From NCBI RefSeq assembly GCF_009914755.1, contig NC_060931.1: a stretch of DNA of 64,000 nucleotides; one strand, 5' to 3'. The position numbers and the translations under genes are program-made. Under the pieces are notes generated by a model. That model was given only the letters and a program-made list of their open reading frames with translations. It did not search any database and was not told the origin of the DNA. Of the stretch, positions 20,131-47,266 are shown one piece after another (positions within the stretch are counted from its first letter, which is position 1; each line of letters opens with the position of its first letter). The stretch is from the human T2T-CHM13v2.0 reference genome, Homo sapiens.

Positions 20131-22436
20131 AAATTAGAAGTTGAAAACTATAACTGTTTCTTAAGACAACTATGAAATAGTTAATATCATCAAAAGCATT
20201 AAAACGTTCTTTTGGTAAAGCAGAGGAAATGGAAGGGGCAGTGAAGAGTAAATTAGATAAAATAATTCTGTGTCAAAACCTCTCCCCTTTTAAAACAACA
20301 GCAACAATAAGAAAACACCACCCATACAAATCATGATAGAGCGGCACCTTGGATCGAGTCCTGTAGCTATGCTAGATAGCCCCACACCTTCCCAGTTAAT
20401 CAGCTATAGGATACCTGAGTGGGAAAGAAAGTGCACGTGGGCACTGTCCAACCCCAGTGGCCACAGGGAAGGCAGGGTATTTTGCAGAATTGGAGCCAGC
20501 AAGTAAGCAGTCCGAATTCCGAGTTCCTGGGTGCCAACTGGAGTGAGCTGAGTGATCACTAAAAAACAATATAAATGGGATCCACTTCCACCTTCAGGAT
20601 GGGCAGGATTAAGGCGTATTTAAGGAAGCCACAACACAGCAGTTTGCTCTACTCACTGTTCCAAAGAGGCAGGGTCATATCTACCTTTTGGTGTGTGTGC
20701 CTGGAGGCTCCGGGGAGAGGTGGACACAGATAACCCTGAAACCTCCCAGGCAGGGAATCACCTCTTCACACACAGTTTGCATCTCTGCAGTTGACGGCAG
20801 GAGCAAAAAATGTGGCCAGCCAGGTTGGAAGGGTGACAACTGATGGAGGCATGGAACCACCTTCGGCTTGGGGCCAACCCAGGTTACTAATCACAGGTCA
20901 GGTATTCAGGTCAGATGTCCACCATTCACACGGGCTCTTTGTCTGCCAAGGCCTGGGTCCAGGCTATGAGTGTTCAAAAATAGAACAGGAAGTTCAGAAA
21001 AAAGCAGAAGCCAAGAGAAGGTTACAGCATGGGAGGGCAGGCTTGGGAGAGAGGATTTATCTTGTGGGGAGGACCTCCCAGTTTAGGAGAGAAGCACCTG
21101 CTCTAGGCACAGGAAGACATCACAAACAGGTGATGAACAGCAGCCGGGAAGCAAGGGGCCTGTTGTGTTTCCATGTTACATCCTGATTCCAGGATGAGCA
21201 AGACTAGGAAACAGACCAGTTTACAGTGGCCACCAGCCTCACAGACTGTACCTATTAAAATGGAATGATTCTTCTGTCCTTTTGTGAGCAGGAGCCGAAG
21301 AACAGGTAAATGAAGGGAAGCAAAGGAAAGAGAAAGAGGCCTGGATGGGTGAGGGGAGCATTTGTGATCTTGGCCCACTCAGCGCCCATCCCCCTTCTTC
21401 TCTTCTTCCAGTAACAGCAGCTTGATTTTCCTCCTGGGAGCACCCTCCTCCACATTCAGTCTGGGAGGCTCCCACAGAGTAGCCCCCGCCCTACAGGGTC
21501 TAGTTCAAGGACCCTCATGAAGTCCTCTCAAGGGGATGTGGGTAGTTGATAAAATCATTATCCCAGATATTTGTGTAAGGCCTTATAGTGTAAGGGTTTC
21601 CTTATAGAAATTTCCTACTTGGGGCTTTGGGTCTTTCTGGCTTCCTAAATTCATGTATAACCTTGTCTCTTGGTTCACTGGGTTGAGATTCCCTAGCCCC
21701 CTGCTGTGCTAACTGTACCCCAGGGACATATCCCACAGCTTCCTCATAACTGCAGCAGGAGCCAGCGCAGAGAATGAGGTCAGGGCTCTTGGCCTTCTCA
21801 GAGAAGCGGACTAAGCCTAGGAATGATTAGATTTTGCTTTGGGGAAATCTGATACCTATTCAAATAGGGGGTGTACCTGGAGCCCACAGTGGAAATGGGA
21901 AGGGTGAGGATTTGGCAGCTCCATCAACAGAAGACAGATAAAAACTCACCACTTACAGAAAAAGCAGGGGCAAAAGCAGTGAGCGTTCCTTTTGGAGTAG
22001 ATTTCTGCTTTTCAGCAAGCGCAGGGAACAGAAAGATCCAGCTGTGAAGGGGCCAGCGAATCATGCATTTAAAAGTTGCACTGCCAGGGCCTAGGAAAGG
22101 AGGCCTCTCTTCAGCCGTGACCCCACTTTGGATTCTTCCAAAACCCAGGTGATCATATAATCCTTTAAACGTCTCTGGCCCCTTTAACTACCAAAGCCCA
22201 GTGACATCTTAATAAGAAGCCTGGTGGCATAGTCTTGGATCTGGAGCCAGGAGTGTGCTTCTTGCTTCTTTAAATAGTCCGAATACCATGTAGGAAGCCT
22301 GAAATCTTGATCTTGGTATAGCCCTTGGGTCAGTTACCTCTCTGGACAGCTTTCCCTAGTGCAGGTGGTTAATTCTTTCATATCTGCAGAGTGCAGACTT
22401 GAACAGACAGAACTAACACTGCCTCTTGCCTACAGT

Positions 22437-22558
22437 GCTTACGCCTGTAATCCCAGCACTTTGGGAGGCTGAGGTGGGTGAATTGCCTGAGGTCAGAAGT
22501 TCGAGACCAGTCTGGCCAACATGGTGAAACCCCATCTCTACTAAAAAAAAATACAAAA
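22437..22558 (+). repeat. Alu left-arm fragment, apparent copy of the Alu at 24776-24897, flanked by 14-bp direct repeat ctgcctcttgccta
   Basis: Shares private variants gcttacgcc, gaattgcctgag, tctggccaac and an A9 linker; flanks at 22419-22432 and 22560-22573. Confidence 0.8.
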
Positions 22559-22592
22559 CCTGCCTCTTGCCTAGGTTAGTGCTAGGTACCGT

Positions 22593-24451: not shown

Positions 24452-25216
<765 letters not shown>

Positions 25217-44627: not shown

Positions 44628-44914
44628 GTGGTGTCAGATCCTTGTTCAAAGGACACATTGTCACGAACAGAGGCAAAGAGCCCCAACTGTCTCCTTTCAA
44701 GAGCTAGAACTTCAGAAGAGTAAGCATGCTCTGTCCTACAGGTGACTCTTAACCCGCAGTTGAGATGCCTGGCTTTATCTTCTGCAGAGATCTAGCCTTG
44801 AAATAAAGCTTGTGATCTAATTTCAAGATTACCAGCCTTTTTGTTGGTGTCCTCAAATATGCCTGCATCGGAGCAATAACCAGTGGCAATTTTCATATGG
44901 ACTCTCTCATCAGT

Positions 44915-45180
44915 ACAATAGGCAATAACCCTTACCTCAAGCTTAACATATGTGAGGCATTTGCCTTTTGTACATGAATCCACCCAATTTTCACAACCAC
45001 CCTATTATGTGTGTACTATGCTTATGCTCATTTTACAGAAGAGAAAACTGAGTGAGACACATAAAGGTAGAGTGAGACACACAGAGGTAGAGCAACTTTC
45101 CCAAGGCTGCACAACTAGAAATGTTGGAGCTGGGATGGGGATGCAGGCAATTTGGTTCCAGAGTCTGTGTCCTTCTACAC
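44915..45180 (-). mobile_element. MIR
   Basis: ctcattttacagaagagaaaactgag...gcaactttcccaaggctgcacaactag. Confidence 0.7.
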
Positions 45181-45279
45181 TACAAAAATGGCTACCACAT
45201 GCTGAGGGCTTACTCTGGGCAGGCACTTTCCAAACACTGACATTATTAATCCATTTTACACGCACAACCATTTAGCTAA
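45163..45279 (+). repeat. Donor copy of a 117-bp dispersed direct duplication
   Basis: Identical to 46753-46869 except at 2 positions. Confidence 0.95.
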
Positions 45280-46752
45280 GCTTGCAGACTGTTTATTTTC
45301 CATATTCATACTTCCAGGGAAGCTATTTTAATTTTAAACATAAGATGGCCAGCCATTACCCCCACTTCCCAAACACATACGCACAGCCTGGGCCCTCCTC
45401 CAAAACAGGTCACTGGCTGGGGATCCTATAGCTTCCCTTGACGAGTATCTTCCAGCATCCCACGATTCACCTCTCCCCCTCTCAACATGCTTATGCCCTC
45501 CCCAACTTCCAGTCCTTATCTCCCCAGCCAAAATCAGGAAGTGATTCTTTGTGGGCAGCTCAACCTCTGAAGGTCAAGCTCATTGCTTTTCAAATTAGAA
45601 TTTGAAGGGTCTTTTCCTCTCCTGGTCAGAGATGAGTGGGAGCTGTCAGATCTGGCCTCCCAGCTTCTGTAATTGATTTATATTTTGGTATAAAATAACT
45701 CTTGATTTTACTGAGGGAGTCAGAGGAGGGGAAGAGGTACAGGGGATCCACACGGAGGCAAAGAACAGACAGAAAATAAAGGAGAAGAAGAAAAACCAAG
45801 AATGATTACATATCTGTGCCAAGAACTGGGGCCAGGTACTCAGCACATTGCTCCTATTGCCAACAGCTGAGAGCGGTTAGGCAGTGTGTGGCAGGAAGCT
45901 GGATTGGAACCCAGTACTCCTTCAGCTGCACCTGAGTAAGAGTCCCAGGGAGGCTGCCGGCTGGCTCACTGTCTCCGACAAGCAGCAAGTCTTCTTCAGG
46001 AGAATTCTCGGTTGCATAAGGAGGCAGTTTACAGGACTCTAACAATCACTGTCACCTCTGGAAAGTCAAGGAAGGGAGCTCTCCAAGGTTCCCTGTGCCA
46101 CTCAGGGCGACACTGAGAAAGCAGATTGATCGCTTTAGAAGTCCGTGACTATGCTGAATGTTACATAGCTGCATTGCAGCAGCCTAGGAGGTGGCCACAC
46201 TCATGTGGCCTTCTTGGACCTTCTGACCCACCAGCCATAAATGCTAACAATGCCAAATGCGGCACAGCTTCCTTTCAGAATCAGTCAGCAAGACACCCTG
46301 TGGTTCATGCTTCCCTCCAAATCTGCTTGCTAACTTATGAGGAAATAGATCTTTCCGCCTCAGTAACAACAAAATTGGTCTTTGCATCTGCGAAAATTAT
46401 GCTCTAGATGACAGCAATCCTGAACATTAATCAAGTATCAATCACTGACATGAGTGGAAAATGGAGCTGGCGTCTTTATTTAAGTCTTGTTTTGAGCAAA
46501 GCAAAGCAAGGACTGATTGCGGAGAAAACCCTTTAATGGGTTTGAAACAGCACGTTGCAGCATGAGCTTGATGGCTGAGGTCTGGTTCAATGCCCAGTTC
46601 TCTCTCTAAATGGCTGTGCTCCTTGTGCCTCAGTTTTCCCATTTGTTAAAAAACAGAAAAATCATCACCTCTCAAGTCACCAAAGGATTAAATGAGACAA
46701 CACATCCCCACACAGAAACAATGATCTATTAGATATATTCAGAATAACCTGG

Positions 46753-46878
46753 GTCTGTGTCCTTCTACACTACAAAAATGGCTACCACATGCTGAGGGCT
46801 TACTCTGGGCAGGCACTTTCCAAACACTGACATTATTAATCCATTTTACATGCACAACCATTTATCTAAATGGTTGTG
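46753..46878 (+). repeat. Derived copy of the 117-bp duplication ending in a fold-back palindrome
   Basis: cacaaccattta-tc-taaatggttgtg (46853-46878). Confidence 0.93.
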
Positions 46879-47266
46879 GGAGACTAAATCCGCTAGGGAG
46901 AGAGTCCCTTATCTTGCCCAAGAGCTTAGAGTATATTTAACATGCTCTGTGCCCACACCAGGGGAATATTCTTTTTTTAGGGGAATATTCAGGTTTCTGA
47001 GCTGTCCAGTCCCCACCCAAAGGGCTTGTTCTCCATGTGTCAGCAGCACTGTCCTGATCTCCCTCTGGGCTCATCCCAACTTGCCAGACTTAGATCTTAC
47101 CCCCTTAAAAAAGCCTTCCACCCACAAATGCAAAACCTGAATCCAATCACAAGGAATCACCAGGTAAACCAAATCCAAGACTTGTAATCTTTAAAAACAT
47201 GAAGGCCATGAATGACAGAGACTGAAGAGACACAACAACTAAATGCAATATGTACTCCAGGATTAA

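What the first reader, a model, noticed from the sequence alone, without database searches (positions are those of the whole stretch)
45163..46878. Young 117-bp copy whose end records a snap-back synthesis step
Seen: 46753-46869 matches 45163-45279 with 2 mismatches (offset 1590 bp). Homology ends at the donor's short palindrome ttagctaa, and the copy continues as taaatggttgtg, the exact reverse complement of the preceding cacaaccattta (12-bp arms, 2-nt centre). Inference: the nascent strand copied the donor, folded back at ttagctaa, extended on itself and rejoined. This gives both direction and mechanism. High identity suggests a recent, possibly ape-specific or polymorphic event.
Basis: partly seen in the sequence, partly recalled or inferred. 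Interest (0 to 1): 0.7.

Follow-up and report, generated by a model that had tools for sequence, protein, structure and literature searches.

The report
Local repair duplication with palindromic junction
A 117-base stretch of a human intron has a near-identical copy 1.6 kb away that ends in a short palindrome; it is likely an ordinary scar of DNA-break repair, a known and common kind, and the sequence alone cannot tell which of several strand-switch routes made the palindrome.

Summary
Observation confirmed: 46753-46869 matches 45163-45279 at 115 of 117 bases. A whole-genome search finds only these two. The copy ends in a perfect inverted repeat with 12-bp arms, seen at 3 of 5000 random positions. 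The donor is likely 45163: an old SINE-like element runs across its left boundary (2 of 385 controls). Size, spacing and junctions fit the published repair-mediated duplications (Pace 2009, PMC2671141; 824 in human); I did not find this locus in their table. The snap-back mechanism is not established. The fold-back primer is 2 bp (+2.1 kcal/mol), while pairing of the same palindrome with another strand is 8 bp (-7.5). Fold-back, inter-strand switch, mirror direction and two-ended annealing all give the same product. The arm may partly predate the copy (7 of 400, uncorrected). Divergence is 1.7% (95% interval 0.2-6.2%): probably hominoid-era; human-specific or polymorphic status is not shown. 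Similar duplicates lie nearby (4 in 264 kb). New member of a known kind, low interest.

The parts
45163..45279 (+). Donor (template) copy; holds the last ~16 bases of one old repeat and the first part of a second
   Evidence: donor status inferred
44940..45178 (+). Old dispersed SINE-like element (the label MIR is recalled, from no call) whose body lies left of the donor and runs across its left boundary
   Evidence: E 2.8e-25 against a profile built with 44800-47100 masked; extension into the duplicated bases reached by 22 of 500, 6 of 500, 5 of 400 and 2 of 385 random controls
45191..45260 (+). Second fragment of the same repeat family inside the duplicated segment
   Evidence: profile positions 2-84, 1 of 400 controls; only E 0.18 with nhmmer
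45272..45279 (.). Donor 8-bp palindrome TTAGCTAA, where homology ends; likely strand-switch or annealing point
   Evidence: 8-mer palindromes occur at 291 window positions, 0.45%; energies
46582..46705 (-). Old element of the same family left of the insertion, opposite orientation; not shown to reach the junction
   Evidence: E 2.5e-10; extension to 46752 not significant (76 of 400 and 45 of 400)
46750..46753 (+). TGGG, left member of a possible 4-bp target-site repeat; its last G is shared with the donor
   Evidence: chance of such a repeat about 6%
46753..46869 (+). Acceptor copy, 115 of 117 identical to the donor
46853..46878 (.). 26-bp inverted repeat (12-bp arms, 2-nt centre). The right arm complements the donor's left arm for 13 bases from the centre, so it would have been a perfect palindrome if the centre base was once the donor's
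   Evidence: hairpin -10.6 kcal/mol as DNA, 0 of 200 shuffles fold as well
46870..46878 (+). Nine bases beyond the direct homology, inverted relative to the donor; likely templated filler, possibly in part old target-site sequence
46877..46880 (+). TGGG, right member of the possible target-site repeat (would make the insertion 127 bp)

Best explanation
The segment at 46753-46869 is a near-identical direct copy of 45163-45279 ending in an inverted repeat; it likely arose when a germline DNA break near 46752 was repaired by copying this nearby template, and the new strand likely switched strands at the donor's TTAGCTAA by pairing all 8 bases with another copy of the same strand (the displaced donor strand, a sister chromatid, or a second invading break end) rather than by folding on itself. 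Shown: the copy, its uniqueness at this sensitivity, the inverted repeat, and that homology ends exactly at the palindrome. Supported statistically: 45163 is the donor. Inferred from the known class: break repair by synthesis-dependent strand annealing or theta-type end joining. Inferred and not separable from rivals by sequence: the intermolecular route and the direction of synthesis. It is likely a neutral intronic scar. My odds: repair-mediated duplication 0.9; switch at the palindrome with mostly new arm bases about 0.75; intermolecular rather than fold-back only slightly better than even.
For: Size 117 bp, gap 1474 bp, two copies, no polyA tail fit Pace 2009: proximal class under 5 kb, median 147 bp, peak near 1.2 kb, with microhomology, filler and occasional 4-21 nt target repeats. 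The donor's old repeat continues into the copied bases. The only template of 9 or more bases within about 5 kb for 46866-46878 is the inverted donor/copy end. The donor 3' end is predicted unfolded. Two-ended synthesis with annealing at a short complementarity is described in Pace 2009. Walker 2021 says many short template switches can be either intra- or inter-strand and that mirror cases cannot be told apart.
Against: Khodaverdian 2017 (Drosophila) reports that 1-2 nt and 3-4 nt primers, including a TA/AT inverted repeat, are commonly used for snap-back and that longer stems are not favoured, so thermodynamics do not exclude fold-back. The right arm resembles the tail of the old repeat that lies left of the insertion (72 of 3000; 7 of 400), so it may be older than the copy. 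No empty site was seen. The direction tests share data and are not independent; the weakest gave 22 of 500. The second repeat fragment was not seen to continue beyond the donor's right edge.
Confidence: 0.42

Rival explanations
1. One reading: the same repair duplication, but the nascent 3' end folded back on itself at TTAGCTAA, extended 9 bases on its own strand, and annealed to the right break end through about 2 bases, leaving a 4-bp TGGG target repeat.
For: Gives exactly the observed product. Very short inverted primers are used in SD-MMEJ snap-back. A TGGG repeat flanks a 127-bp insertion.
Against: The primer stem is 2 A:T pairs, +2.1 kcal/mol, and is not predicted to form. The TGGG repeat has about a 6% chance of arising at random. 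Not separable from inter-strand routes.
Confidence: 0.33
2. The right arm was already at the target site (the tail of the old repeat to its left). It served as a 12-13 bp inverted microhomology by which the right break end found the donor, extended a few bases, switched strand at the palindrome and copied leftwards. Synthesis would then have run opposite to the first reader's picture.
For: The arm matches the majority letters of the independent profile's tail at 10 of 10 columns (72 of 3000 controls). Left flank plus arm scores above 393 of 400 controls. The 12-bp duplex is -13.5 kcal/mol. An inverted 12-mer partner within 2 kb exists for 123 of 5000 positions, repeats included.
Against: One of four empty-site readings tried, so weak after correction; the reading two bases further left gave 51 of 400. 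The left element is not shown to reach the junction. The Viterbi and nhmmer versions showed no gain. The tail columns are poorly conserved. It needs a chance match next to a palindrome.
Confidence: 0.2
3. Not a repair copy from 45163: reverse direction, retrotransposition, two members of a repeat family, or a chance palindrome.
For: Both loci lie among old repeats. No outgroup was seen.
Against: 98% identity, while other copies of that family in the window are barely detectable from it. Two genomic matches only. No polyA tail. The old element is continuous at 45163. The palindrome is rare by chance.
Confidence: 0.05

Closest known systems
Repair-mediated duplications, proximal class (Pace et al. 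2009, PMC2671141; read parts 1-4 of 8 of the text, searched Table S1). The 'doublets' of Thomas et al. were seen only as cited there.
   Same: Over 50 bp, two copies, donor within 5 kb, no polyA tail, short filler, possible microhomology and short target repeat, intronic.
   Different: Not found in their Table S1 (no ATXN7L or KIAA1218 row; no chr7 row with coordinates starting 1049-1054; the hg18 position is from recalled offsets). Their method needs an interrupted annotated repeat, which was not shown here. The filler is an inverted copy of the donor's own end; I saw no such category in the parts I read.
SD-MMEJ snap-back (Khodaverdian et al. 2017, PMC5728401; 12 passages seen)
   Same: An inverted primer repeat primes short synthesis; the insert becomes part of a longer inverted repeat and makes microhomology for rejoining.
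   Different: Defined at induced breaks in Drosophila, with templates within about 30 bp of the break. Here it follows a 117-bp copy from 1.6 kb away, and the intramolecular step is unproven.
MMBIR-type templated insertions in the human germline (Osia et al. 2021, PMC8421209; 12 passages seen)
   Same: Inverted copies of nearby templates; complex multi-template events are common as germline variants (33 and 26 in two people).
   Different: Their search covers inverted templates of 10 bp or more within 100 bp. Here the main template is direct and 1.6 kb away and the inverted part beyond the homology is 9 bp.
Short-range template switching, four-point model (Walker et al. 2021, PMC7954356; 7 passages seen)
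   Same: A transient reverse-orientation copy yields a single inverted repeat; intra- and inter-strand routes are often not separable.
   Different: Confined to one fork; it does not include the kilobase jump.

Membership tests
Repair-mediated duplication, proximal (Pace 2009) | Insertion of 50 bp or more found at one other genomic place | tested here: met
   117 bp; 2 matches from 2 candidates genome-wide (the tool's sensitivity caveat applies)
Repair-mediated duplication, proximal (Pace 2009) | Donor more than 50 bp and less than 5 kb from acceptor | tested here: met
   gap 1474 bp
Repair-mediated duplication, proximal (Pace 2009) | No polyA/T tail | tested here: met
   sequence at both junctions
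Repair-mediated duplication, proximal (Pace 2009) | Microhomology, filler, deletion or short target repeat at the breakpoints | tested here: inconclusive
   9 bases beyond the homology are present; one shared G at the left junction; the TGGG repeat has about 6% chance; exact status needs the empty site
Repair-mediated duplication, proximal (Pace 2009) | Empty site in an outgroup, or an interrupted repeat that defines it | not testable with these tools
   No primate relatives are held; repeat continuity across the acceptor was inconclusive
SD-MMEJ snap-back | Inverted primer repeat at the point where the inserted inverted sequence starts | tested here: met
   TTAGCTAA at the homology end
SD-MMEJ snap-back | Priming within one strand (hairpin) | tested here: inconclusive
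   Unfavourable by energy, but such short primers are used in vivo; the product is identical for inter-strand routes
SD-MMEJ snap-back | New synthesis creates microhomology with the other end | not testable with these tools
   Needs the empty site; 2 bases under the TGGG reading
L1-mediated (target-primed) insertion | PolyA tail and 7-20 bp target duplication at an A-rich site (definition recalled) | tested here: not met
   No tail; longest flanking repeat 4 bp
Lineage-specific or polymorphic insertion | Absent from other apes or from some humans | not testable with these tools

The most novel reading that the evidence does not exclude
Repair copying that ends by strand-switching at a small palindrome creates a perfect, spacer-less 26-bp palindrome, and its tip is then mutated selectively. 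The only non-CpG difference in 117 bases sits on one of the two centre bases (about 2 in 115 by chance; post hoc arithmetic). If general, repair-duplication junctions would be a dated source of new perfect palindromes in ape genomes and a natural assay of hairpin-tip mutagenesis, and this one could be young enough to still segregate.
Probability: 0.15. Interest if true: 0.45.

Novelty: new member of a known kind. Interest (0 to 1): 0.18.

Why it matters
As a single locus it matters little: it is an intronic scar with no annotated exon or functional element (hub annotation), in a class with 824 catalogued human members. It is a clean teaching example of a two-step templated insertion, and a caution that a junction palindrome does not fix the direction of synthesis or prove fold-back. 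It would matter more only as a seed for a genome-wide count of how often such duplications end at donor palindromes and whether the new palindromes are centre-mutated.

Tried and rejected
Repeat-family or multi-copy origin: rejected. Distant templates for the acceptor flanks: each flank matches only itself genome-wide. Within about 5 kb the left flank has only two 11-base matches, which I treat as chance. Acceptor right flank beyond the arm as an old-repeat fragment: not supported (282, 128 and 80 of 400 controls). Second repeat fragment continuing past the donor's right edge: not seen. Donor's own arm sequence as the tail of a third element: not supported (44 of 400; 930 of 1000). Several nhmmer-based tests returned no hit and were uninformative, so I replaced them with an unfiltered Viterbi and a sum-of-pairs score. 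Listing in Pace Table S1: not found; one search showed only the first 30 of 124 chr7 places. Outgroup or SV-catalogue evidence: none obtained. Supplements that I could not see may list this insertion. The background sample is 264 kb only. No protein, RNA-family or structure searches were run, as nothing pointed to a gene.

Full report
Observation. 46753-46869 matches 45163-45279 without gaps at 115 of 117 bases, offset 1590. One mismatch is a CpG transition in the copy (46851); the other is at the centre of the donor's palindrome TTAGCTAA (46865). Homology stops at the last base of that palindrome. In the copy, 46853-46864 and 46867-46878 are perfect 12-bp inverted arms. Only 9 of these bases lie beyond the direct homology. 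A search of the whole genome returned these two places only, and each acceptor flank matched only itself; the tool warns that such searches skip common words.

Chance. The next 9 bases reverse-complement something in the previous 20 at 44 of 63,971 window positions. A junction-style search reached arms of 12 or more at 3 of 5000 random positions, and at 1 of the 16 duplicate ends examined, namely this one; the next best was 7. The inverted repeat therefore belongs to the event.

Direction. I built a profile of the old dispersed repeat from 46 copies found in 264 kb with the test region masked. The family name MIR is recalled, not from a call. The profile finds an element at 44940-45178 (E 2.8e-25) that crosses the left edge of the 45163 copy, and one at 46582-46705 on the other strand. 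Adding the first 28-30 duplicated bases to the donor-left body raises the score more than random sequence does: 22 of 500, 6 of 500, 5 of 400 and 2 of 385 controls reached it in four versions that share data. So 45163 is likely the original. The matching test on the donor's right edge showed nothing.

Mechanism. The class is clear. Pace 2009 (PMC2671141; parts 1-4 of 8 read) describes 824 human duplications with donor within 5 kb, median 147 bp, no polyA tail, and microhomology, filler, deletion or short target repeats, ascribed to synthesis-dependent strand annealing. This locus fits. I did not find it in their Table S1 (the hg18 position rests on recalled offsets).

Folding back needs a 2-bp A:T stem (+2.1 kcal/mol), and the donor end is predicted unfolded. 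The same 8-mer pairs fully with another copy of the same strand at -7.5 kcal/mol. By inspection, four routes give the identical product: fold-back; a switch to the displaced donor or sister strand; either of these run from the right break end; or both ends copying the donor and annealing at the self-complementary 8-mer. Walker 2021 (7 passages) states that intra- and inter-strand switches and mirror directions are often not separable. Against my preference, Khodaverdian 2017 (12 passages) shows that 1-4 nt primers do drive snap-back in flies and that longer stems are not favoured. I put the intermolecular route slightly ahead (0.42 against 0.33).

A third reading came out of the profile. The right arm matches the majority letters of the repeat's tail at 10 of 10 columns, in the orientation of the element left of the insertion (72 of 3000 controls). 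Left flank plus arm beat all but 7 of 400 controls, against 51, 378 and 105 of 400 for three other empty-site readings; a positive control gave 1 of 400. The tail columns are weak, the left element is not shown to reach the junction, and the Viterbi version gave no gain. It stays a minority reading (0.2) in which the arm is old and acted as inverted microhomology. A 4-bp TGGG repeat flanking a 127-bp insert favours wholly new arm bases, but it has about a 6% chance of arising at random.

Age. Divergence is 1.71% (95% interval 0.21-6.17%): 3.9 (0.5-14.0) million years at the 2.2e-9 rate used by Pace, or 8.5 (1.0-30.9) at 1e-9. Two or fewer mismatches have probability 0.012 at 7% expected divergence and 0.069 at 5%, so an origin shared by all primates is unlikely. 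Pace found 15 of 824 to be human-specific and 1 of 10 tested to be polymorphic. My rough inference is that the copy is most likely shared with other great apes, with about a one-in-ten chance of being human-specific. No outgroup or variant catalogue could be examined.

How ordinary. A scan of 21 stretches (264 kb, each searched alone, so pairs across edges are missed) for pairs of 40 bp or more, at least 94% identical and under 5 kb apart gave 5 rows. I dropped one as an apparent Alu-to-Alu match at a stretch edge. The other four are this one, a second in the same window, and two in L005 and L020. Complex multi-template insertions are also reported as common human germline variants (Osia 2021, 12 passages). 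TSIPs (PMC5110952) were seen as a search listing only.

One oddity remains. The right arm complements the donor's left arm for 13 bases from the centre, so the product would have been a perfect 26-bp palindrome, and the single non-CpG mismatch falls on its centre. This may be tip mutagenesis, a junction base, or chance (about 2 in 115, post hoc).

Verdict. A real, well-preserved repair-mediated duplication with a templated inverted filler; new member of a known kind; no sign of function; interest 0.18.

Noticed in passing
window 22437-22558 and 24776-24897: A second young local duplicate in the same window: 122 bp, 97.5%, offset 2339. The 24776 copy continues as an Alu-like element; the 22437 piece is isolated and flanked by a 14-bp direct repeat (22419-22432, 22560-22573). 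The next-best match among 225 BLAST rows in 264 kb is far lower (157 against 207 bits). Likely a repair duplication with a target-site repeat.
   Followed up: partly
L005 2638-2696 and 3602-3659 (G000:C7:106832001-106842000): 59-bp inverted local duplicate, 96.6%, 906 bp apart; the 2638 copy appears to interrupt an Alu-like element (label recalled) with a short TACA repeat on each side.
   Followed up: partly
L020 3454-3505 and 4680-4731 (G000:C7:106982001-106992000): 52-bp direct local duplicate, 94%, 1175 bp apart; one copy starts at the end of an A-tail.
   Followed up: no
window 45050-45089: 20-bp tandem duplication (90%) inside the donor-side old repeat; it shows as an insertion against the profile.
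   Followed up: no
window 46961-46990: A short AGGGGAATATT-containing motif occurs twice around a T run, 90 bp right of the insertion (seen).
   Followed up: no
window 46724-46745: Two small palindromes with about 5-bp arms sit just left of the left junction (seen by eye); probably chance, not tested.
   Followed up: no
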